This document shows, one piece after another, positions 5,441 through 56,615 of a stretch of DNA of 64,000 bases (the first letter of the stretch is position 1; every line of letters begins with the position of its first letter). The notes beneath the pieces are model-generated. The model was given only the letters and a program-made list of their open reading frames with translations, did no database searches and was not told where the DNA came from. Made by a program: the position numbers and the translations under genes. The stretch lies in the NCBI RefSeq assembly GCF_003334405.1, contig NZ_QOWM01000003.1. The stretch is one strand, 5' to 3'. The stretch is from Escherichia coli (GTDB taxonomy: Bacteria; Pseudomonadota; Gammaproteobacteria; Enterobacterales; Enterobacteriaceae).

Positions 5441-8137
<2,697 letters not shown>

Positions 8138-8138
<1 letters not shown>

Positions 8139-8719
8139 TACAACTTCACCAAACCACTAAAGCCCATAAAGGCCAGAGACATAAGACCTGCGGTAATTAA
8201 CGCAATGGCATTACCGCGAAAAGGTGCCGGGACATCAGCCACAGCAAGGCGTTCGCGGATGGCGGCGAAGAGCACCATCACCAGCGAGAAACCGACAGCG
8301 GCGGAAAAACCGTACAGCGCCGACTGCAAGAAATTGTGCCCGAGATTGATATTCAGCAACGCCACGCCGAGCACTGCACAGTTGGTGGTGATAAGCGGCA
8401 AAAAAATCCCCAGCAGACGGTAAAGCACCGGGCTGGTTTTGCGCACCACCATCTCGGTGAACTGCACGACCACAGCAATCACCAGAATAAATGCCAGGGT
8501 GCGCAGGTAAATCAGATTAAGTGGGATCAAAATCCACGTATCGATAAGCCAGGCGCAAATAGACGCCAGCGTCATCACAAACGTTGTTGCCAGCCCCATG
8601 CCCATCGCGGTTTCCAGTTTTTTGGAAACCCCCATAAACGGACAGAGACCGAGAAACTTGACCAGTACAAAGTTATTGACCAGTACAGTTCCGACAAACA
8701 GTAACAGGTAGTCAGTCAT
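8138..8719 (-). CDS. rsxA: Ion-translocating oxidoreductase complex subunit A
   Basis: 193-aa membrane ORF recognised as RsxA; first gene of the rsxABCDGE-nth operon; stop overlaps rsxB start by 1 nt. Confidence 0.95.
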
Positions 8720-8795
8720 TTTTCGGCCTGAAATAAAAAAGCCGCCTATTATCCGTTAATCCAGAGCAGGCGACAACAGGTTAACTGTAAGGTTA

Positions 8796-9236
8796 TTACG
8801 GATTCACAAACGTCGCTTTTACCCGCGACGAGCGTTTGAAATAGGGGACGATCAATGCGGTTGCCAACAAAGTAAACAGCAACTGGCGAACGGCTATGCC
8901 ATCTTCCACGGGTGAAAAAGCGAATGCTTTTACTGCCAGCAATACGGAAATAAGCAGCCAGATAATATAGTGTTTAGGAACACAACGCCGACGTTTAAAG
9001 AAAGCGATGGTCAACCACAGTGTGTAATACCACAAGGCGATAGCGGTAATAAAAGAAACGCCCCATAAGATTTGTGTCGTCAGTGCTTGTCCGCCGAGCG
9101 TTTGAAATGTTTGCGGAGAAGATAACGCAGCGGTATACAGCAACAACGCCAGCGTCGTACTCAACAGAGCGACTAAAAGCCAGGCCAACGGGCCAAGCAA
9201 CCAGCCTCCAATACGTTGTGGCGTTGTGGTGGTCAT
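8796..9236 (-). CDS. ydgK: Inner membrane protein YdgK
   Basis: ORF track gives 154 aa; trimmed to internal Met (MTTTTPQRIGGWLLGP..., 146 aa, complement of cat at 9234-9236) to match the length I recall for YdgK. Confidence 0.8.
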   Translation of the reverse strand: MTTTTPQRIGGWLLGPLAWLLVALLSTTLALLLYTAALSSPQTFQTLGGQALTTQILWGVSFITAIALWYYTLWLTIAFFKRRRCVPKHYIIWLLISVLLAVKAFAFSPVEDGIAVRQLLFTLLATALIVPYFKRSSRVKATFVNP

Positions 9237-47962: not shown

Positions 47963-49171
47963 CGTCCGCGAAATTACCGACGCAATTACGCAGGCAATCA
48001 ATAAACCGGGGAGTAGCTGATACTCCCCGGTCATTTCACATATCATCAACGTCGACATAATCGGCGCGTGCGTGGTCGCCGCCAACAGTGTCGCCATCCC
48101 GGTCAATCCGAGTAAAAGTGTAATTTCTTCGCCATCAGGGAACCATAATCCCAGGCTACGACCATACAACATGCCAATGGCAAGACCGATAAATAGCGTC
48201 GGTGTAAAGACCCCACCGGGTGCGCCGGAACCGCTACTCGCCAGCACGGCACACAGTTTACAAAGGAAGATCCCGGCAATGATCATTAACAGTGGTGGGG
48301 CGGTTAAAAAGGATTGTACGGTGCTATAGCCGTTGCCCCACACTGCAGGTGTGAACAGGGAAAGCAGACCCACGATCAACCCGCCTAGTGCCAGTTGCCA
48401 GGGCGGCGCAAGTTTGAGACTCACAAATCCACGATGACAGGCGTTCATTAACGTTAACAACAGTGGTCCGCACAGACCTGCCAGCACACCTGTACTGATA
48501 ATCAGCGCATAGTCACGAGCCTGAACCGTCACTGAGAGTTGTACGTTGTAGAGTAACGCGTCGCTATGATTAATCAGATTGCTAACCAGCAATGCCACGA
48601 CGGCGGAAATAATCACCGGGCCGAGAGAGGCCAACATCATAGTGCCAAACAGCACTTCGGCTATAAATAAACTGCCAGCAAGCGGGGCACGATAGGCCGC
48701 AGCCATTCCCGCCGCGGCCCCACAGGCGATCCATAATTTCCACCCCTGGCGTGGCGTAAAACGTTGGGCAAAACAGGAGGCGGCAAGGGCAGCTAAAAGA
48801 ATCATCGCACCTTCGCGACCAATTGCACTGCCGCTGGTTACTACCAGCAGAGAGGCAAGCGATTTAACCAGGCTTGCTGCGTAATCGAACTGTCCATCGG
48901 TTTGCAACGCTTCCATATAATCGGTCGGCGCATGAGGGCGTTGTTGGGTAAATTTCTGCCAGCCCATCAGCAACAAACCCGCCGCCAGTCCGCCGAGCGC
49001 CGGAGTTAGCAACCGTCGCCAGGGGGAAAGGTTTGTCGCTGCATTGACCAGACTGCCGGAGTCATTATTGAGGAACAACCACTCCAGTAGCAGCATCGCA
49101 TGACGAAACCCGGCAACGGCAAAGGCCGCGAGAATACCGACGACTGTTGCGATAAGCAGACGGCGGAACAT
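47915..49171 (-). CDS. clcB: Voltage-gated ClC-type chloride channel ClcB (YnfJ)
   Basis: Trimmed to [33 protein letters not shown]... (418 aa; complement of cat at 49169-49171); ClC signatures GSGAPGG and GREG. Confidence 0.9.
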
Positions 49172-49365
49172 AGTGCGCAGATCCGGATAGATGTGTAGAT
49201 GATGCATGAGCAGAAATGGGCAATGAAACACGGGCGACTATTTTGCGGCAAAAGAGGCCAGCCGCAAAAGCAGTGCGTGCTTTAAGAGATAAAAAAACGT
49301 GACACTGTAACCTATTATTGCCGGATTGCGCGTAATCGTCACCATCCGGCAATATTACGGTGATC

Positions 49366-49980
49366 CTATCGAAACAGCGGTTTAACCGCGACAGGAATTA
49401 ACAGTTGTGATTGCCATTGCGCCAGCGTTAAGCGAGCCAGTTCACCCAGTGCACGGTAGAAAGGGTGTTCTGCTTTTTCGATAAAAACATCAAGAAAACG
49501 TGTTGACCACGGAAAAAGGTGCCATGCCAGCAATTCTTCGCATTCTGTCTGGCGACCATTCTCCGCCAACCACGCAGCCATCAACAGCAGTGAACCAAAA
49601 TGATCTTCCGGTTCGTTTTGCTTCATTTCAAACTGAATGCCTTTCTCGCGCATCCACTGACGAAGTGCCAATGTTGAATCGCCAAACAGCACAGATTCGC
49701 GATCCAGCCAGACCGACCCCCACGGCGGAGACGGCAGTGCCCACGGGCCGACAAACAAACGCTGCCAGGCCTGGGCGTGAGTCTCTTCACACTGTGTCTG
49801 AAAAGCCGTCACCAGCGGCGCTAATGACGCTTCTGGTAGAGGCCACTGAGTTTCCCAGCCGTCACTGGTGAGTACCGCAACCAGAGGTGCGGCTTCCGCA
49901 CTCTCTGGAGCGTAATAAAACAGCGCGCCCAACACGCGCGCCGCGACAGAAAAATTATCTTGCTGTGAAAAATGGGTCAT
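49366..49980 (-). CDS. dmsD: Tat proofreading chaperone DmsD (redox enzyme maturation protein)
   Basis: Trimmed to MTHFSQQDNFSVAARVLGALFYYAPESAEA... (204 aa); last gene of the ynfEFGH-dmsD cluster. Confidence 0.93.
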   Translation of the reverse strand: MTHFSQQDNFSVAARVLGALFYYAPESAEAAPLVAVLTSDGWETQWPLPEASLAPLVTAFQTQCEETHAQAWQRLFVGPWALPSPPWGSVWLDRESVLFGDSTLALRQWMREKGIQFEMKQNEPEDHFGSLLLMAAWLAENGRQTECEELLAWHLFPWSTRFLDVFIEKAEHPFYRALGELARLTLAQWQSQLLIPVAVKPLFR

Positions 49981-50022
49981 TCCTAACATCCTGAAATGTG
50001 CGGGTTGCCCCGCACCAATTTG

Positions 50023-50877
50023 TTAACCTGCAATAGCCATTCCTACTGTCATGTGCAGGCCATAAAAGAGCACACGCCCGATCATCTCACCGCCAAGTAT
50101 GAGGATTAGCCCCAGAATAAGTCCGGCAACGTGAGGTTCACGGCGACGAATGAGCGGGCAAAGCCAGCATCCAAGACCTGCGCATAACAATACCACACGC
50201 CAGACCTGTAAGGAGGCGTAATCTGGTACCAGTGCGCTGGCTTGTTGCACGGATGAGTGAATAGACGCCAGAGACAAACCTTGCAGCACAATCACCCCGG
50301 CACAAGCGATCAGCGCCAGAACGCTAATGATGGCAAATGGTGTGGTATTAAATGTAACGCGAGCTGCCCGCAGAATTGCGGCAGCAAGTATTGGACCGCT
50401 CAACAATACCGTCAGGAAGAAAGCCAGCGTAGTGTAACCGTTATGCCAGGTTGGCACGGTGTCGATTTGATACACGCAGGTCATCATCCAGACGAAAATG
50501 ACGCCGAGCGCCATGCTGAAAAGTAACCAGAGTTTCCCCAACGCTTGCGGCATTTTACCGATGACTGCCACCAGCCACCATAATCCGCCAACGGCAAAAA
50601 ATATGGAACCGGCAGCAATCTCGTTACTCAGACCAGAAGCTCCGATTCGATTCAGCGAGTTAAACGCCCGCAGTGGCGATCCCAGGTGCATGACAGAGGC
50701 AATAAACCCGACGCCCATCAACAGCCAGAGGAAAAACATGCCACGGACAATACGCTGACGGTCTGCGTCATTTTTGGCGGCGAACCAGCCAATTCCGCTA
50801 ACAATCAGCGCGCCTACTACGCATTGACCCAATACGGTAAAGATAACCAGTGGCCACTCATGCCATCCATTTCCCAT
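50023..50877 (-). CDS. ynfH: DmsC-like membrane anchor subunit YnfH
   Basis: Trimmed from the 364-aa track ORF to MGNGWHEWPLVIFTVLGQCVVGALIVSG... (284 aa; complement of cat at 50875-50877); the 80-aa upstream extension overlaps ynfG in another frame. Confidence 0.92.
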   Translation of the reverse strand: MGNGWHEWPLVIFTVLGQCVVGALIVSGIGWFAAKNDADRQRIVRGMFFLWLLMGVGFIASVMHLGSPLRAFNSLNRIGASGLSNEIAAGSIFFAVGGLWWLVAVIGKMPQALGKLWLLFSMALGVIFVWMMTCVYQIDTVPTWHNGYTTLAFFLTVLLSGPILAAAILRAARVTFNTTPFAIISVLALIACAGVIVLQGLSLASIHSSVQQASALVPDYASLQVWRVVLLCAGLGCWLCPLIRRREPHVAGLILGLILILGGEMIGRVLFYGLHMTVGMAIAG

Positions 50878-50878
50878 T

Positions 50879-51496
50879 TTACACTTCCTCCGGATTAGCC
50901 AGATAACCAGTGGTATCGCCGGTCGGGCGGCTGTTGGCGTTAGGTTTGATAACGATATTGGGTTTTGTGAAATGCGCGCGCGGCAGTGGCGCGACGGCAG
51001 CAAGAGTGCCGTGCTTCTGGCGCAGCTCTTCAATTGGACCGAACTCAAGTGCACGCAGCGGGCAGGATTCGACACATATGGGTTGTTTCCCCTCGGCGAC
51101 GCGCGAATAACAACCATCGCACTTCGTCATGTGCCCTTTTTCAGCATTGTACTGTGGCGCGCCGTACGGACAAGCCATGTGGCAGTAGCGGCAGCCGATA
51201 CAAACATCTTCATCAACCACCACAAAGCCATCTTCACGCTTATGCATTGCGCCGCTGGGGCAGACTTTTGTACATGCGGGGTCATCGCAATGGTTACAGG
51301 AGATGGAGAGATAATAAGCGAACACGTTCTGGTGCCAGACGCCATTATCTTCCTGCCAGTCGCCGCCAGCGTATTCATAAATACGGCGGAAACTGACTTC
51401 CGGGCCAAGATCTTTAAAATCTTTGCACGCCAGTTCGCAGGTTTTACAGCCAGTACAGCGGCTGGAATCGATAAAAAATCCATATTGTGTGGTCAT
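50879..51496 (-). CDS. ynfG: DmsB-like 4Fe-4S ferredoxin subunit YnfG
   Basis: 205-aa ORF with four Cys clusters (CTGCKTCELAC; CNHCDDPACTKVCP; CIGCRYCHMACP; CDGCYSRV...CVESCP). Confidence 0.95.
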   Translation of the reverse strand: MTTQYGFFIDSSRCTGCKTCELACKDFKDLGPEVSFRRIYEYAGGDWQEDNGVWHQNVFAYYLSISCNHCDDPACTKVCPSGAMHKREDGFVVVDEDVCIGCRYCHMACPYGAPQYNAEKGHMTKCDGCYSRVAEGKQPICVESCPLRALEFGPIEELRQKHGTLAAVAPLPRAHFTKPNIVIKPNANSRPTGDTTGYLANPEEV

Positions 51497-51506
51497 GGGC
51501 TACTCC

Positions 51507-53933
51507 TTAAACCTTTTCGATCTGGACAAGATTGCTGTGCGACGGGTTTCCCTTTGCCAGCGGTGAAGGGCGGTGAGAGGTCAGAATATTGATACTGCCG
51601 CCGTGATCGACCCGGTCACCAAACATATCCGCTTTAAGCCACGCACCTTGCCCGATGGCGGTAACGCCAGGCAGAATACGCGGAGTCACTTTTGCGGCAA
51701 TCAGCATTTCTCCATTATTGTTAAATACCCGCACGGTATCGCCATGACGGATACCGCGTGCCTGAGCATCAATGGGGTTGATCCACACCTCTTGTGGGCA
51801 GGCCTGCTGTAACACATCAATATTGCCGTAGCTGGAGTGGGTACGCGCTTTGTAATGGAAGCCCGTTAACTGCAGTGGATAGGTTTTCCGCAGGGGATCG
51901 TCCCAGCCATCAAAACCTGGGGTATACGCAGGAAGGGGATGAATAATTTCATCTTTTTTCAATTCCCAGGTATCTGCAATCTTCGCCAGTCGTTCAGAAT
52001 AAATTTCGATTTTCCCCGAAGGTGTTTTCAACGGGTTTGCCTGTGGATCTTCACGGAATGCGCGGAAAGCGACGTAGTGTTCTTCCGGGCATTTTTTCTT
52101 AAAGATCCCGGTCGTTTTCATCTCCTCGTAGTCGGGCATCTCAGGGTTACGTTCCTTCGTTTTCGCATGGAGATATTTGATCCATTCATGCTGACTGCGA
52201 CCTTCAGTAAAGGTTTGATAAACGTCTGGTCCTAAGCGTTTGGCGACTTCACTCAGCATCCAGTAGATGGGTTTGCGTTCAAATTTTGCTGAGGTTGCGG
52301 GTTGGGCGAGGATCACATAGCCCATATTCCCTGCAGATTCATGAGAGATAAGGTCTTCTTGCTCTGTTGGCATCAGGTCGGGCAACAGGATATCGCAATA
52401 CTTAGCCGAGGCCGTCATGAAGTGGTCAATGCCAACAATCATCTCGCACTTGCTGTCATCCTGAAGCACCTCATGGGTGTGATTGATGTCGCCATGTTGA
52501 TTGATCAATGTGTTACTGGCGTAGCACCATAAAAACTTGATGGGGACATCCAGTTTTTCTTTTCCACGAACACCATCACGGGTCGCGGTCATTTCCGTAC
52601 CATGGTCGATGGCATCTGTCCATGTAAAGACGGAAATCTGCGTTTTAACAGGATTCTCGAGCATCGGGAACCATTCTACCCCCAGATCCCAGCTACCTTC
52701 GCGTACGCCTGAGTTGCCGCCGTTTATGCCGACGTTGCCGGTGAGAACGGAAAGCATGGCAATAGCGCGGGATGTTTGCTCGCCGTTGGAATGTCGTTGT
52801 GGCCCCCAACCCTGACAAATATAAGCAGGTTTTGCTGAACCGATCTCTCGTGCCAACTGGATAATTTTTTCTGCCGGGATGCTGGTGATTTTTGCTGCCC
52901 ATTCCGGCGTTTTAGCTATGCCGTCAGGCCCTTCGCCCAGAATATAGGCTTTATAATGCGCGTTACGTGGTGCGTTGGCGGGCAGCGTTTTTTCATCGTA
53001 ACCAACACAATATTTGTCGAGAAATGGCTGATCGACCATGTTTTCAGTAATCAGTACCCAGGCAATCGCACAGGCCAGTGCGCCATCGGTGCCAGGGCGA
53101 ATGGGCAGCCATTCATCTTCACGCCCGGCAGCAGTGTCGTTATAACGTGGATCGATGACGATCATGCGTGCGTTTGAACGTTCGCGGGCTTGCTCGACGT
53201 AGTAAGTGACACCACCGCCGCTCATCCGCGTTTCTGCCGGGTTATTTCCGAACATAACGACCAGTTTCGTATTGGCGATATCATCCGGGCTGTTGCCATC
53301 ATTGGCACCGAACATATAACTCATTGCGGCACTGATCTGTGCGGTACTGTAGCTGCCATAGCGACTGAGAAAACCACCGCAAGAGTTCATCAGACGGTAC
53401 GGGACGTTTGAGTTGGTGATGTTTCCGCCATCTACGCCTGTTCCGTACAGGACATGTACAGCCTCATTGCCGTAATCTTTCAGGATCCGCCGAAGATTAT
53501 CACTGATGGTATCCAGGGCTTCGTCCCAACTTATCCGTTCAAATTTACCTTCACCGCGCTTGCCGACGCGCTTCATGGGATATTTCAACCTATCAGGATG
53601 ATTCATCCGTCGGCGGATAGAGCGCCCGCGTAAACACGCTCGAACCTGATGATTACCGTAGACGTCGTCACCTGTCGTATCAGACTCCACCCAGTACACG
53701 GTGTCATCTTTCACATGCAAACGTAACAGACAGCGGCTCCCGCAGTTAACGGTGCAGGAACTCCAGACCGCTTTCTCTTCTACCGGAGCCTCTGCCGCCC
53801 GGACCATTTGGGAAAATGGCAGAGTGAAAGCACTGCTTGCCAGCGCAAGACTGCCAAGTGCGGAGGTTTTCATCAGACTTCTACGGCTGATTTCAGCCTT
53901 CATGAGCGCCTCTGTGGTATGGATTTTCATCAT
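51507..53933 (-). CDS. ynfF: Tat-exported molybdopterin oxidoreductase catalytic subunit YnfF (DmsA paralogue)
   Basis: About 807-aa ORF with twin-arginine signal (SRRSLMKTSALGSLALA); true start may be the second Met (53930). Paralogous to ynfE upstream. Confidence 0.93.
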   Translation of the reverse strand: MMKIHTTEALMKAEISRRSLMKTSALGSLALASSAFTLPFSQMVRAAEAPVEEKAVWSSCTVNCGSRCLLRLHVKDDTVYWVESDTTGDDVYGNHQVRACLRGRSIRRRMNHPDRLKYPMKRVGKRGEGKFERISWDEALDTISDNLRRILKDYGNEAVHVLYGTGVDGGNITNSNVPYRLMNSCGGFLSRYGSYSTAQISAAMSYMFGANDGNSPDDIANTKLVVMFGNNPAETRMSGGGVTYYVEQARERSNARMIVIDPRYNDTAAGREDEWLPIRPGTDGALACAIAWVLITENMVDQPFLDKYCVGYDEKTLPANAPRNAHYKAYILGEGPDGIAKTPEWAAKITSIPAEKIIQLAREIGSAKPAYICQGWGPQRHSNGEQTSRAIAMLSVLTGNVGINGGNSGVREGSWDLGVEWFPMLENPVKTQISVFTWTDAIDHGTEMTATRDGVRGKEKLDVPIKFLWCYASNTLINQHGDINHTHEVLQDDSKCEMIVGIDHFMTASAKYCDILLPDLMPTEQEDLISHESAGNMGYVILAQPATSAKFERKPIYWMLSEVAKRLGPDVYQTFTEGRSQHEWIKYLHAKTKERNPEMPDYEEMKTTGIFKKKCPEEHYVAFRAFREDPQANPLKTPSGKIEIYSERLAKIADTWELKKDEIIHPLPAYTPGFDGWDDPLRKTYPLQLTGFHYKARTHSSYGNIDVLQQACPQEVWINPIDAQARGIRHGDTVRVFNNNGEMLIAAKVTPRILPGVTAIGQGAWLKADMFGDRVDHGGSINILTSHRPSPLAKGNPSHSNLVQIEKV

Positions 53934-53990
53934 TACTCACTTATTGCTTTTCAAACAAAATGTCATGCCAGAATTTATGGTTGTCGTGGG

Positions 53991-56417
53991 TTATATTTTT
54001 TCGATCTCGACCAGATTAGTGTGCTGCGGGTTTCCCTTCGCCAGTGGTGAAGGGCGCAGAGTGGTTAGCGTATTCACACAGCCGCCATGGTCGATTTTAT
54101 CGCCAGACATATTGGCCTCGTGCCAGGCTCCCTGGCCCATAGCGCTAACTCCAGGGAGAATACGTGGTGTTACTTTGGCTGGTAGCCGAACTTCGCCACG
54201 ATGGTTAAACACCCGCACCATATCGCCGTTGGCAATCCCACGTTTCTGCGCATCTATAGGGTTGATCCACACCTCCTGACGGCAGGCAGCCTTCAGGAGA
54301 TCAATATTGCCGTAGGTCGAGTGAGTACGGGATTTGTAATGGAAACCAAACAGTTGCAGTGGGAAGGTTCTACGTTCAGGGGAGTTCCAGCCTTCAAAGG
54401 TTGAGGCATAAACTGGCAATGGGCTTATCACTTCATCTTTTTCCAGTTCCCAGGTACGGGCAATTTCCGCCAGCCTGCTGGAATAAATTTCAATCTTACC
54501 GGAAGGCGTTTTAAGTGGATTTGCCTCGGGGTCGTCACGAAATGCTTTGTAGGCGACAAAATGGCCATTGGGATCTTTACGCTTATAGATACCCATTTTT
54601 TTCAGTTCGTCGTAAGACGGTAACGCCGGATCTTTGGCAAGCATTTTGGCGTACAGATGTTGTAACCATTGTTCCTGCGTGCGACCTTCTGTGAACTTTT
54701 GATAGACGTCAGGTCCAAGACGTTTCGCGACTTCACTCAGGATCCAGTAAATCGGTTTGCGTTCGAATTTTTCGCTGGTGACAGGCTGGAGGAAAATGAG
54801 ATATCCCATGTTACCGGCGTAGTCGTTAGGAATAATATCTTCCTGCTCAACGGTCATCAGGTCTGGCAGCAGAATGTCGGCATATTTTGCCGATGAGGTC
54901 ATAAAGTTTTCGATGACCACAATCATTTCGCATTTCGATTCGTCCTGCAGAATTTCATGCGTTTTGTTGATGTCAGAATGCTGATTAACGAGGGTATTTC
55001 CCGCGTAGTTCCAGATGAACTTAATGGGCACATCCAGTTTATCTTTGCCGCGGACGCCGTCGCGGATTGCCGTCATTTGCGGACCATGATCGATAGCATC
55101 TGTCCAGCTGAAGCAGGAGATTGACGTTTTGACCGGATTATCCAGCACCGGCAGGCGTTCTATGGTAATGGTATAGGTCGATTCACGCGCGCCACTATTT
55201 CCGCCGCTGATGCCGACATTGCCCGTCAAAATAGGTAACATAGCAATAGCGCGTGCAGTCAGTTCGCCGTTTGCCTGGCGTTGTGGCCCCCAGCCCTGGC
55301 AGATATAAGCGGGTTTTGCTGTGCCAATTTCACGCGCCAGTTTGATGATACGGTCCTCCGGGATACCGGTAATTTGCGAAGCCCACTGCGGCGTTTTCGC
55401 TGTTTTATCGTCACCTTCACCAAGAATATAGGCTTTATAGTGACCATTTTTGGGTGCATCTGCGGGTAAGGTTTTTTCGTCATAGCCGACGCAGTATTTA
55501 TCGAGAAAAGGTTGATCAACGAGATTTTCGTTAATCAATACCCAGGCAATACCCGCAACCAGCGCGGCATCGGTGCCCGGGCGAATAGGGAGCCATTCGT
55601 CTTCACGACCGGCAGCCGTATCGGTATATCGCGGATCGATAACAATCATTTTGGCGTTCGATTTCTCGCGCGCTTTTTCAAGAAGATAAGTGATGCCACC
55701 ACCGCTCATGCGGGTTTCTGCCGGGTTGTTACCAAACATCACGACCAGCTTGCTGTTTTCAATATCCGTGGTGCTGTTGCCATCATTACTGCCGTAGGTG
55801 TAGGGCATGGCACAGGAAATTTGCGCAGTGCTGTAGGAGCCATACTGGTTGAGTGAACCGCCGTAGCAGTTCATCAGGCGTTTGACCGCCGAGGCTGATG
55901 GCGAAGAGCGGGTCATATTGCCGCCAACGATCCCCGAAGAGTACTGAATATATACAGCCTCATTGCCATATTGTTCGACGGTTTTCTTCAGGCTACTGGC
56001 GATAGTATCCAGGGCTTCATCCCAGCTAATCCGTTCGAATTTGCCTTCGCCGCGTTTGCCCACGCGTTTCATTGGGTAATTCAAGCGATCGGGATGATTA
56101 ATACGCCGGCGGATGGAGCGACCGCGCAAACAGGCGCGTACCTGATGGTTGCCGTACTCATCGCTGCCGGTATTGTCAGTTTCCACCCAGGTCACTTCAT
56201 TATCTTTAACATGTAGACGAAGTGCACAGCGGCTACCACAGTTGACGGAACAGGCACCCCAGACCACTTTTTCGCGGGCCTGTTGTACCGCTGCTGCTGC
56301 ATTGCGCAGGGTAAACGGCAAAGAAAAACCGCCTGCAGCCAGCGCCAGAGAACCTATCGCGGTAGATTTAACGAGTGTTCTGCGGCTGATGCCCACCATT
56401 CGTTCATTTTTGGACAT
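53991..56417 (-). CDS. ynfE: Tat-exported molybdopterin oxidoreductase catalytic subunit YnfE (selenate reductase, DmsA paralogue)
   Basis: 808-aa ORF with twin-arginine signal (SRRTLVKSTAIGSLALA) and N-terminal Fe-S Cys motif (CSVNCGSRCALRLH). Confidence 0.95.
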   Translation of the reverse strand: MSKNERMVGISRRTLVKSTAIGSLALAAGGFSLPFTLRNAAAAVQQAREKVVWGACSVNCGSRCALRLHVKDNEVTWVETDNTGSDEYGNHQVRACLRGRSIRRRINHPDRLNYPMKRVGKRGEGKFERISWDEALDTIASSLKKTVEQYGNEAVYIQYSSGIVGGNMTRSSPSASAVKRLMNCYGGSLNQYGSYSTAQISCAMPYTYGSNDGNSTTDIENSKLVVMFGNNPAETRMSGGGITYLLEKAREKSNAKMIVIDPRYTDTAAGREDEWLPIRPGTDAALVAGIAWVLINENLVDQPFLDKYCVGYDEKTLPADAPKNGHYKAYILGEGDDKTAKTPQWASQITGIPEDRIIKLAREIGTAKPAYICQGWGPQRQANGELTARAIAMLPILTGNVGISGGNSGARESTYTITIERLPVLDNPVKTSISCFSWTDAIDHGPQMTAIRDGVRGKDKLDVPIKFIWNYAGNTLVNQHSDINKTHEILQDESKCEMIVVIENFMTSSAKYADILLPDLMTVEQEDIIPNDYAGNMGYLIFLQPVTSEKFERKPIYWILSEVAKRLGPDVYQKFTEGRTQEQWLQHLYAKMLAKDPALPSYDELKKMGIYKRKDPNGHFVAYKAFRDDPEANPLKTPSGKIEIYSSRLAEIARTWELEKDEVISPLPVYASTFEGWNSPERRTFPLQLFGFHYKSRTHSTYGNIDLLKAACRQEVWINPIDAQKRGIANGDMVRVFNHRGEVRLPAKVTPRILPGVSAMGQGAWHEANMSGDKIDHGGCVNTLTTLRPSPLAKGNPQHTNLVEIEKI

Positions 56418-56615
56418 AACTCACTCCCTGTTCTTTATCGTTATATAAAAGTTTATATATTGAATATTTAGCGCGCTAACAATAGAGGGAGTCTACCCAT
56501 TTTGGGTTAAGAATTATTAATCCATATCAATAGAAGGGTATGAGTAATAAGGTGGGATTATGTTGTATGTTCAAATCGCCGGATTTGTCATATCCGGCGT
56601 TCAGTCGATAATGTG

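What the first reader, a model, noticed from the sequence alone, without database searches (positions are those of the whole stretch)
51507..56417. Tandem paralogous Tat-dependent molybdoenzyme genes ynfE and ynfF
Two adjacent genes of about 808 codons encode highly similar catalytic subunits, each with its own twin-arginine signal. They share a single set of ferredoxin (ynfG), membrane anchor (ynfH) and chaperone (dmsD) genes. This is a retained tandem duplication, and such pairs are prone to recombination or gene conversion between copies, so this stretch can differ between strains.
Basis: partly seen in the sequence, partly recalled or inferred. Interest (0 to 1): 0.2.

Follow-up and report, generated by a model that had tools for sequence, protein, structure and literature searches.

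The report
Old ynfE/ynfF selenate reductase gene pair
These are the well-known neighbouring ynfE and ynfF genes of E. coli K-12, an old duplicate pair that no longer exchanges sequence, although rare strains have fused the two into one hybrid gene and many others have lost one copy in unrelated ways.

Summary
Window 51507-56417 (minus strand) holds two 808-codon ORFs, ynfE and ynfF, 71% identical as protein. Each has its own twin-arginine leader. They are followed by single ynfG, ynfH and dmsD genes, and the DNA is 100% identical to E. coli K-12.

- **No gene conversion.** The copies are 69.9% identical in DNA, with synonymous sites saturated (dS about 2). The longest shared run is 17-20 nt in nine diverse strains. 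Orthologues group by paralogue across genera.
- **The locus does vary between strains, mostly for other reasons.** Among 5,426 complete E. coli genomes:
  - 546 carry a ynfF pseudogene with two internal deletions (ST131 type).
  - 89 carry a 6.4-kb deletion.
  - At least 127 carry an integrase island inserted in ynfE.
  - Others carry IS insertions.
- **The predicted single-copy chimeras exist but are rare.** There are 10 complete genomes from 2 events, one of which marks the ST399 clone. Wider databases add at least 8 more crossover intervals in E. coli, at least 5 in Salmonella, and one in E. whittamii. Every one switches once from ynfE to ynfF. The five junctions mapped at DNA level lie at identity patches of 14 nt or less.

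This is a known operon with low interest; the recurrent fusions are a modest new detail.

The parts
53991..56417 (-). ynfE, first catalytic subunit gene (808 codons plus stop)
   Evidence: ORF and translation. NCBIfam selenate_YnfE scores 1796 bits against a cut-off of 1675. RefSeq name on identical DNA.
51507..53933 (-). ynfF, second catalytic subunit gene (808 codons from the first ATG; RefSeq uses the ATG at 53930, giving 807 aa)
   Evidence: ORF and translation. NCBIfam selenate_YnfF scores 1775 bits against a cut-off of 1650. RefSeq coordinates.
56286..56417 (-). YnfE Tat signal peptide region (about aa 1-44; RR at 56379-56384). The cleavage site is inferred, not tested.
   Evidence: Sequence MSKNERMVGISRRTLVKSTAIGSLALAAGGFSLPFTLRNAAAAV. 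DmsD binding to this leader is reported for the Salmonella orthologue in PMC5203670.
53796..53933 (-). YnfF Tat signal peptide region (about aa 1-46; RR at 53880-53885). The cleavage site is inferred.
   Evidence: Sequence MMKIHTTEALMKAEISRRSLMKTSALGSLALASSAFTLPFSQMVRA. See also PMC5203670.
53934..53990 (-). 57-nt ynfE-ynfF spacer. The repeat period of the tandem is 2484 bp.
   Evidence: Coordinates and sequence.
50879..51496 (-). ynfG, the shared four-cluster iron-sulfur subunit. It starts 10 nt after the ynfF stop codon.
   Evidence: TIGR02951 DMSO_dmsB scores 264.8 bits against a cut-off of 214.1. Junction sequence.
50023..50877 (-). ynfH, the shared membrane anchor
   Evidence: Pfam DmsC PF04976, E = 4.7e-128 over residues 1-274.
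49366..49989 (-). dmsD, the Tat proofreading chaperone (RefSeq start is 9 nt further in)
   Evidence: NCBIfam PRK11621 scores 347 bits against a cut-off of 162.
55714..55727 (-). 14-nt run AACCCGGCAGAAAC in ynfE, identical to ynfF 53230-53243. This is the crossover site of the K-12-background ynfE::ynfF fusion in strains JCC-EE 7 and FELIX_MS533.
55262..55271 (-). ynfE AACGGCGAAC, against ynfF AACGGCGAGC at 52778-52787. This is the crossover site of the ST399-clone fusion (ECONIH4, 0H15-0H26, CAVP776).
55007..55021 (+). 15-bp core AGTTCCAGATGAACT inside ynfE (gene nt 1397-1411). In other strains it is the insertion point of an island of about 9 kb that carries a tyrosine integrase. It is empty in this window.
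51589..51862 (-). Segment of ynfF deleted in ST131-type genomes (first of two deletions, 274 bp). It is intact in this window.
52637..53216 (-). Segment of ynfF deleted in ST131-type genomes (second deletion, 580 bp). It is intact in this window.
   Evidence: The junction is present in 546 genomes.

Best explanation
**What it is.** This is the ynfEFGH-dmsD operon of E. coli K-12. ynfE and ynfF encode two alternative molybdenum catalytic subunits of a selenate/tellurate reductase. The enzyme is paralogous to DMSO reductase DmsABC, anchored in the membrane and facing the periplasm.

**How it works.** Each subunit has its own twin-arginine leader, which is proofread by DmsD. [quoted passage not shown] The function rests on published genetics, not on anything tested here.

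**History of the pair.** The pair is an old tandem duplication, older than the Escherichia-Salmonella split. The two copies now evolve independently under purifying selection, with no concerted evolution. At about 70% DNA identity and no shared run above about 20 nt in E. coli, they are poor substrates for ordinary homologous recombination.

**Variation between strains.** The locus is decay-prone in the species, mainly through lesions unrelated to the paralogy:
- internal deletions in ynfF
- a 6.4-kb deletion
- an integrase island that targets a 15-bp site in ynfE
- IS insertions

**Fusions.** Rarely but repeatedly, an unequal exchange between the copies deletes exactly one 2484-bp repeat unit. 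This leaves a single in-frame hybrid gene with a ynfE 5' part and a ynfF 3' part. The five junctions mapped at DNA level lie at identity patches of 1-14 nt. I infer either homeologous (imperfect-homology) recombination, or microhomology-mediated deletion with survival of the in-frame products. The data do not decide between these two.
For: **Identity and architecture.**

**Published function.**
- YnfE is the main selenate reductase subunit in Salmonella; YnfF contributes little; DmsD binds both leaders (PMC5203670).
- An E. coli ΔynfEF strain loses selenate reduction, and a single Enterobacter ynfE orthologue restores it (PMC12724226).

**Age and independence of the copies.**
- DNA identity is 69.9%, third-position identity is 47.6%, and the longest shared run is 17 nt.
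- The same figures hold in nine diverse strains: 69.5-70.0% identity and longest runs of 17-20 nt.
- Between the copies dN = 0.21 and dS = 2.04. Within E. coli, dN/dS is 0.06 for ynfE and 0.05 for ynfF.
- Salmonella, Citrobacter amalonaticus and Pseudocitrobacter have the same tandem at 68-70% identity within each genome.
- In a neighbour-joining tree the E and F orthologues form separate clades.

**Census of 5,426 complete genomes.**
- ynfE is near full length in 5,112 and ynfF in 4,740.
- The ynfF deletion junction is in 546.
- The 6.4-kb deletion junction is in 89.
- The island junction is in 127.

**Fusions.**
- The flank-joining search found 10 genomes with one 2427-nt gene between the intact flanks.
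- Site-by-site mapping shows a single E-to-F switch.
- Further fusion proteins have other crossover intervals in E. coli and Salmonella. Their context was confirmed at three loci.
- E. whittamii has the switch in the last codons of the gene.
- Junction identity patches at the five DNA-mapped junctions are 1-14 nt.
Against: - No enzyme activity, export or subunit sharing was tested here; these rest on the literature.
- The neighbour-joining tree places the F clade outside the whole E clade on a long stem. The place and time of the duplication are therefore not resolved, and a very old duplication or a transfer of ynfF cannot be excluded.
- Proteins named YnfF occur at 76-82% identity in Providencia, Aeromonas and Actinobacillus.
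- Short conversion tracts (below about 40 nt) would escape both the run-length test and the database census.
- Only nine full E. coli loci were compared base by base.
- Whether the hybrid enzymes work is unknown.
Confidence: 0.88

Rival explanations
1. The two copies actively exchange sequence by gene conversion or frequent homologous recombination, and that exchange is what makes the stretch vary between strains.
For: - Single-copy hybrid genes exist.
- ynfE and ynfF are reported among the most often pseudogenised metabolic genes in E. coli (PMC13322260).
Against: - Identity between the copies is flat at about 70% in every genome examined, with no run above 29 nt.
- Variants that match the paralogue are scattered, not in tracts. 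They are no more common than other variants: 36 against 34 in ynfE, and 22 against 39 in ynfF.
- All hybrids show one E-to-F switch; none is a mosaic.
- Only 15 extra ynfF-like places occur in 5,317 genomes.
- The common variants (546, 127 and 89 genomes) are not products of exchange between the paralogues.
Confidence: 0.05
2. The in-register fusions are not guided by homology at all. They are ordinary microhomology or slippage deletions, and they look in-register only because in-frame, correctly registered products are the ones kept and annotated as intact proteins.
For: - Out-of-register deletions joining ynfE to ynfF also occur. Examples are AZ 191, ynfE nt 1813 joined to ynfF nt 794 with a 6-nt overlap, and a series of fused ORFs of 946-1206 aa.
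- For repeats of 10 nt or more, in-register pairs already outnumber out-of-register pairs 25 to 7, so some in-register events are expected by chance.
Against: - Two junctions have only 1 nt and 6 nt of perfect identity. At 6 nt or more, out-of-register pairs outnumber in-register pairs 1526 to 77.
- These junctions do sit in stretches of imperfect homology, which points to pairing of the diverged copies.
- The protein databases hide out-of-frame products, so the true ratio of the two classes is unknown.
Confidence: 0.35
3. The hybrid genes are assembly artefacts caused by collapse of two similar genes.
For: Several of the fusion proteins come from draft short-read assemblies seen only once or twice.
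Against: - The copies share no run longer than 17-20 nt, which is shorter than usual assembly k-mers.
- The ST399 fusion is identical in eight complete genomes from at least three separate collections and is seen on 68 contigs.
- The K-12 fusion is in two complete genomes.
- The flanks are colinear, and exactly one 2484-bp unit is missing.
Confidence: 0.03
4. ynfF is not an in-place duplicate of ynfE. It is an older paralogue, or a horizontally acquired one, that came to lie next to ynfE in the Escherichia-Salmonella-Citrobacter group.
For: - In the tree the F clade is sister to all E-type genes, including those of Serratia, Rahnella and Budvicia.
- Most Enterobacterales sampled have a single E-type gene.
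- YnfF-named proteins occur at 76-82% identity in Providencia, Aeromonas and Actinobacillus.
Against: - At 99 signature positions nearly all single-copy orthologues carry the E state. The outgroup paralogues also share more E states than F states. This fits fast change on the F stem after a local duplication, which neighbour-joining would misplace.
- The head-to-tail arrangement with a short spacer and shared downstream genes is what a tandem duplication leaves.
Confidence: 0.2

Closest known systems
E. coli / Salmonella ynfEFGH-dmsD selenate (and tellurate) reductase operon. Cited from reference lists seen: Lubitz & Weiner 2003; Guymer et al. 2009; Fujita et al. 2021.
   Same: It is this operon. 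The DNA is 100% identical to K-12, the gene order is the same, the NCBIfam models are met above cut-off, and the RefSeq names match.
   Different: Nothing differs in this window. The strain-level variants described here (fusions, the island in ynfE, the ST131 pseudogene) are in other genomes.
DmsABC DMSO reductase (dmsA, dmsB, dmsC)
   Same: It has the same three-subunit design, the same Tat export and the same chaperone DmsD. YnfE and YnfF score 1343 and 1321 bits on the DmsA model.
   Different: Both proteins fall below the DmsA model cut-off of 1600. DmsA branches outside the E+F group when used as outgroup. The dms operon has one catalytic gene and no chaperone gene.
Single-gene srnABCD / ynfE-type operons of Enterobacter, Klebsiella, Kluyvera, Lelliottia and others
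   Same: They have an orthologous catalytic subunit (84-87% identity to YnfE) followed by ynfG-type, ynfH-type and dmsD-type genes.
   Different: They have one catalytic gene, of E type along its whole length. The window has two.
Lepore-type hybrid genes made by unequal crossing-over between tandem paralogues (haemoglobin delta-beta, opsin arrays). From general knowledge.
   Same: The ynfE::ynfF fusions in other strains have the 5' part from the upstream copy and the 3' part from the downstream copy. One repeat unit is lost and the reading frame is kept.
   Different: The parent copies are only 70% identical, and the mapped crossovers sit at patches of 1-14 nt. No reciprocal (three-copy) product was seen.
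Concerted evolution of bacterial duplicate genes such as tufA/tufB. From general knowledge.
   Same: There are two functional paralogues in one genome.
   Different: The defining near-identity maintained by conversion is absent here.

Membership tests
DmsA/YnfE/YnfF catalytic subunits (NCBIfam TIGR02166; specific models NF041885 YnfE and NF041884 YnfF) | The whole-protein score is above the curated cut-off of the specific model. | tested here: met
   YnfE scores 1796.1 against 1675, and YnfF scores 1774.7 against 1650. Each is below the other's cut-off. Both exceed the TIGR02166 cut-off of 777.7.
DmsA/YnfE/YnfF catalytic subunits | An N-terminal twin-arginine (Tat) leader | tested here: met
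   SRRTLVK in YnfE and SRRSLMK in YnfF, each followed by a hydrophobic stretch. Export itself was not tested.
DmsA/YnfE/YnfF catalytic subunits | An N-terminal Cys group for a [4Fe-4S] cluster, plus molybdopterin and dinucleotide-binding domains | tested here: met
   The CSVNCGSRC...RAC and CTVNCGSRC...RAC motifs are visible. Pfam PF04879, PF00384 and PF01568 are recorded for the 90%-identity clusters that hold these proteins and for the fusion genes.
DmsA/YnfE/YnfF catalytic subunits | Selenate/tellurate (or S-/N-oxide) reductase activity with a Mo-bis-MGD cofactor | not testable with these tools
   This rests on published genetics only.
ynfEFGH-dmsD operon | Same-strand gene order: catalytic, catalytic, Fe-S subunit, anchor, chaperone, with short spacers | tested here: met
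   The spacers are 57, 10, 1 and about 33 nt, all on the minus strand.
Paralogue pairs homogenised by gene conversion (concerted evolution) | Tracts of near-identity between the copies, above the background divergence | tested here: not met
   The longest identical run is 17-20 nt in nine E. coli strains and 29 nt or less in four other taxa. The 40-codon windows range from 59% to 81% identity and track protein conservation.
Paralogue pairs homogenised by gene conversion (concerted evolution) | Copies within a genome are closer to each other than to their orthologues in related species. | tested here: not met
   E and F orthologues form separate clades. Orthologues from other genera are 84-89% (E) and 89-92% (F) identical to the E. 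coli proteins, against 71% between the copies.
Unequal-crossover (Lepore-type) fusion of tandem paralogues | A single gene between intact flanks, with the 5' part from the upstream copy, the 3' part from the downstream copy, one repeat unit missing and the frame kept | tested here: not met
   It is not met in this window, which has both genes. It is met in other genomes: 10 complete E. coli genomes, further E. coli and Salmonella assemblies and E. whittamii.

The most novel reading that the evidence does not exclude
Two linked readings are not excluded.

1. **Repeated reduction to a working single hybrid enzyme.** The in-register ynfE::ynfF hybrids are working enzymes, and the two-gene state is being reduced to one gene again and again. 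At least 10 crossover intervals occur in E. coli, 5 in Salmonella and one in E. whittamii, and one fusion is fixed in the ST399 'naturalized' wastewater and meat-plant clone. The crossovers are limited to places where a hybrid fold still works. This would give a natural series of chimeras for mapping what distinguishes YnfE from YnfF.

2. **A reversible switch.** The integrase island at the 15-bp site in ynfE could turn selenate reductase off and on by integration and excision.
Probability: 0.2. Interest if true: 0.45.

Novelty: already known. Interest (0 to 1): 0.22.

Why it matters
The operon and its duplicate catalytic genes have been studied for 20 years, so the finding as stated adds nothing new.

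The check is useful in three ways.
- It shows that a tandem paralogue pair at about 70% identity behaves as two independent genes. It does not recombine often enough to count as a hotspot.
- It gives a breakdown, by cause, of why ynfE and ynfF are so often broken in E. coli. A 2026 pangenome paper noted the pattern without giving mechanisms.
- It turns up natural single-switch YnfE/YnfF hybrids that could be used to ask which part of the protein sets substrate preference.

It also flags that work on 'ynfF' in ST131 strains such as EC958 is dealing with a pseudogene.

Tried and rejected
- **Conversion tracts within the window.** A codon-aligned sliding window and the longest identical runs showed none.
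- **Conversion tracts across strains.** I compared nine full loci spanning 97.7-100% identity to K-12. Run lengths were unchanged. Paralogue-matching variants were scattered among dozens of unconverted sites, including the one run of five in L014 and L016. I did not count that run as a tract.
- **A possible hidden group of divergent alleles.** Eight genomes had ynfF at 90-95% identity and ten had ynfE at 80-90%.
- **Whether single-copy genes in other Enterobacterales are hidden chimeras.** They are E-type along their whole length at 99 signature positions, except in E. whittamii and one related protein.
- **Defence-system content of the ynfE island.** PADLOC found only a weak homing-endonuclease match. 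PHROGs identified an integrase, an HNH endonuclease and an Ant-like protein. I make no claim about what the island does.
- **A technical failure.** The first attempt at three-way alignment with a slow MAFFT mode timed out. It was redone with a fast mode.
- **Literature.** Searches for reports of a ynfE/ynfF fusion, the ST131 ynfF pseudogene or an island in ynfE found none. The library lacks most subscription journals.
- **Not done.** I did not search for the reciprocal three-copy product, apart from noting that none appeared among the listed hits.
Full report

Yes. The ORF list shows two 808-aa ORFs on the minus strand, at 51507..53933 and 53991..56417. The proteins are 71% identical (567/801) and 85% similar over their full length. 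Each begins with a twin-arginine motif followed by a hydrophobic stretch: SRRTLVK in the upstream copy and SRRSLMK in the downstream copy.

NCBIfam places the upstream protein above the curated cut-off of the YnfE model (1796 against 1675). It places the downstream protein above the YnfF cut-off (1775 against 1650). Each falls below the other's cut-off and below the DmsA cut-off.

Downstream on the same strand are single genes for the DmsB-type iron-sulfur subunit (ynfG), the DmsC-type anchor (ynfH; Pfam DmsC, 4.7e-128) and the chaperone DmsD. The spacers are 57, 10, 1 and about 33 nt.

The 7.7-kb stretch is 100% identical to K-12-lineage genomes, where RefSeq names the genes ynfE, ynfF, ynfG, ynfH and dmsD.

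**2. What is it?**

It is the ynfEFGH-dmsD operon. According to the papers read here:
- It encodes a Tat-dependent, membrane-bound selenate reductase paralogous to DmsABC.
- In Salmonella, YnfE is the main catalytic subunit and YnfF contributes little.
- DmsD binds the leaders of DmsA, YnfE and YnfF (PMC5203670).
- An E. coli ΔynfEF strain cannot reduce selenate, and a single Enterobacter orthologue restores the activity using the E. coli YnfG, YnfH and DmsD (PMC12724226).
- Tellurate reduction is attributed to ynfEF by Fujita et al. 2021, cited in PMC12096835.

None of this biochemistry was tested here.

**3. Do the copies exchange sequence?**

A codon-based alignment gives 69.9% DNA identity. 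Third positions are 47.6% identical, and no shared run exceeds 17 nt. Identity in 40-codon windows ranges from 59% to 81% and follows protein conservation, so there are no tracts. Between the copies dN is 0.21 and dS is 2.04, which is saturated.

I fetched eight further complete loci spanning the species' range of identity to K-12, from 99.4% to 97.7%. In every strain the two copies are 69.5-70.0% identical, with longest shared runs of 17-20 nt. Polymorphisms that happen to match the paralogue are no more common than other changes. The counts are 36 against 34 in ynfE and 22 against 39 in ynfF. They also lie scattered among many unconverted diagnostic sites. Within E. coli both genes are under strong purifying selection, with dN/dS of 0.06 and 0.05.

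A scan of one genome per species returned 80 loci. The same tandem is present in two Salmonella subspecies, Citrobacter amalonaticus and Pseudocitrobacter. Identity between the copies within each genome is again 68-70%, with runs of 29 nt or less. A neighbour-joining tree rooted on E. coli DmsA puts all YnfF proteins in one clade and all YnfE-type proteins in another. There is no concerted evolution.

Most other Enterobacterales sampled have one gene. It is E-type along its whole length at 99 positions that separate the two clades. The F clade sits on a long stem outside the whole E clade, so I cannot say when or where the duplication occurred. It predates the Escherichia-Salmonella split.

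**4. Does the stretch differ between strains?**

Yes, but mostly not because of the paralogy. Among 5,426 complete E. coli genomes, ynfE is near full length in one piece in 5,112 and ynfF in 4,740. I counted the main lesions with short junction queries that match end to end only if the lesion is present:

| Lesion | Genomes |
|---|---|
| ynfF pseudogene with two internal deletions (window 51589-51862 and 52637-53216) | 546 |
| Deletion of about 6.4 kb from inside ynfH to just upstream of ynfE | 89 |
| Integrase-carrying island of about 9 kb inserted in ynfE | at least 127 |
| IS5, IS1, IS3, IS66 or IS21 insertions, and larger deletions | individual genomes |

- The ynfF pseudogene is present in the ST131 reference strain EC958.
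- The island sits at a 15-bp, partly palindromic core, AGTTCCAGATGAACT (window 55007-55021). The core is repeated at both ends of the island. The homologous ynfF site differs at 5 of the 15 positions.
- A 2026 pangenome study independently lists ynfE and ynfF among the most often pseudogenised metabolic genes (PMC13322260).

**5. Do chimeric or single-copy forms exist?**

I joined the left flank (49007-51506) to the right flank (56418-58917) into a 5-kb query. The search tool merges the two halves into one match only when they lie 3 kb or less apart in a genome. Fifteen genomes did so.

Ten of them have a single 2427-nt gene between intact flanks. Site-by-site comparison with ynfE and ynfF shows a clean single switch:
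- **ST399 fusion.** ynfE nt 1 to about 1155, then ynfF nt about 1157 to 2427. It is in ECONIH4, the six 0H strains and CAVP776.
- **K-12 fusion.** ynfE nt 1-690, then ynfF nt 705-2427. It is in two K-12-background strains.

ECONIH4 and the six 0H strains are typed as ST399, the 'naturalized' wastewater and meat-plant clone (PMC11169474). The exact hybrid protein is seen on 68 public contigs.

These ten genomes account exactly for the only records whose ynfF (8 genomes) or ynfE (10 genomes) falls below 95% identity to its own gene, apart from nine unexamined records at 60-80% for ynfE. No other genome therefore carries a large paralogue-derived tract.

Searching the 5.8-billion-protein collection with YnfE and with YnfF found more full-length hybrids, all with one E-to-F switch:
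- **E. coli crossover intervals (aa):** 339-344, 344-347, 366-381, 426-432, 451-459, 459-468 and 513-522, besides 222-242 and 382-386.
- **Salmonella crossover intervals (aa):** 269-280, 280-288, 311-319, 329-351 and 477-485.
- Three of these were checked in their contigs, and each is the only catalytic gene between ynfD and ynfG.
- E. whittamii has a single gene that is ynfE-type except for its last codons. Those codons and the junction to ynfG are ynfF-type, so it too lost ynfF by an in-register event.
- No F-to-E hybrid and no E-F-E mosaic was seen among the hits listed.

**6. How do the fusions arise?**

Against the best-matching parental alleles, the perfect identity at the five junctions mapped at DNA level is 1, 6, 9 and 14 nt, and about 8 nt for E. 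whittamii. From my own knowledge, efficient RecA-dependent exchange in E. coli needs roughly 20-30 nt of perfect identity. These junctions are below that.

Out-of-register deletions joining the two genes also occur:
- AZ 191: ynfE nt 834 joined to ynfF nt 282.
- ynfE nt 1813 joined to ynfF nt 794, with a 6-nt overlap.
- A series of fused ORFs of 946-1206 aa.

For shared runs of 10 nt or more, in-register pairs outnumber out-of-register pairs 25 to 7. At 6 nt or more the ratio is 77 to 1526. The in-register junctions with 1 nt and 6 nt of identity are therefore hard to explain by microhomology alone. They suggest either pairing of the imperfectly homologous copies or strong survival of in-frame products. 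I cannot separate these two explanations with sequence data.

**7. Comparison with what is known, and verdict**

The feature is the known ynfEFGH-dmsD operon, and all defining sequence features are met. It does not belong with paralogue pairs kept alike by conversion, because both defining features of that class were tested and not met. The rare hybrids in other strains match the Lepore type of unequal-crossover fusion.

Variation and chimeras exist, but conversion is absent, recombination between the copies is rare, and most variation has other causes.

Novelty: already known. Interest: low. The recurrent natural hybrids, the ynfE-specific island and the ST131 pseudogene are modest by-products that I did not find described in the searchable literature.

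Noticed in passing
window 55007-55021 (empty site here); filled in L101 34692-43757, L099, L100: In at least 127 of 5,426 complete E. coli genomes, an island of about 9 kb with variable cargo is inserted in ynfE. It carries a 534-aa tyrosine integrase, an HNH endonuclease, an Ant-like protein and unknown ORFs. The insertion point is a 15-bp, partly palindromic core, AGTTCCAGATGAACT, repeated at both ends. The matching ynfF site differs at 5 of 15 nt. I found no description of it in the literature search.
   Followed up: partly
window 51589-51862 and 52637-53216 (intact here); L001 2708-4250, L106 5264-6833: ST131-type genomes, 546 in all and including the reference strain EC958, carry a ynfF pseudogene with two internal deletions of 274 and 580 bp. 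A 2025 J Bacteriol paper (PMC12096835) reports 'ynfF' expression in EC958 and does not mention this in the passages I read.
   Followed up: partly
window about 50210-56576; L009 junction near 1391-1402: A 6.4-kb deletion removes most of ynfH, all of ynfG, ynfF and ynfE, and the region upstream of ynfE. It is found in 89 complete genomes from several backgrounds. The BLAST segments overlap by 12 nt at the junction, and the overlap is imperfect.
   Followed up: partly
L018 6001-8437 (Escherichia whittamii): This species has one catalytic gene. It is ynfE-type throughout except for the last codons, which together with the junction to ynfG are ynfF-type. It therefore lost ynfF by an in-register deletion at the extreme 3' end. 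A related 808-aa protein (P0130) shows the same pattern.
   Followed up: yes
proteins P0047-P0062; L108 3001-6441: Public E. coli assemblies hold many in-frame but out-of-register ynfE::ynfF fused ORFs of 946-1206 aa. At least nine different junctions are seen. One is on 95 contigs (P0061) and another on more than 30 (P0052; ynfE nt 1813 joined to ynfF nt 794).
   Followed up: partly
protein P0046 (1220 aa): One E. coli protein reads YnfE residues 1-690 followed by YnfE residues 278-808. This is an internal partial duplication within ynfE, not a ynfE-ynfF event.
   Followed up: no
window 51507-56417 compared with L010-L017: Within E. coli, ynfE is more polymorphic than ynfF. Mean pairwise dS is 0.076 against 0.052, and there are 25-64 against 6-49 differences from K-12. 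Between Escherichia and Salmonella, YnfF is also the better conserved protein (about 91% against 87%). This is despite published evidence that YnfF contributes little to selenate reduction.
   Followed up: no
L085, L086, L088, L089, L091, L093-L095, L097: Serratia, Rahnella, Ewingella and Budvicia have a second DmsA-family gene just downstream of their ynfE-type gene. It is 65-69% identical to YnfE and branches outside the YnfE+YnfF group. It is therefore a different tandem pair.
   Followed up: no
L002 around 8001-8900 (strain 44): An IS1 element sits just past clcB. The chromosome then resumes in ydfJ, so the whole ynf region and its neighbours are missing in this blood isolate.
   Followed up: no
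summary line: Nine records have their best ynfE match at only 60-80% identity. They were not examined. They may be genomes lacking ynfE in which the search picked up ynfF or dmsA.
   Followed up: no
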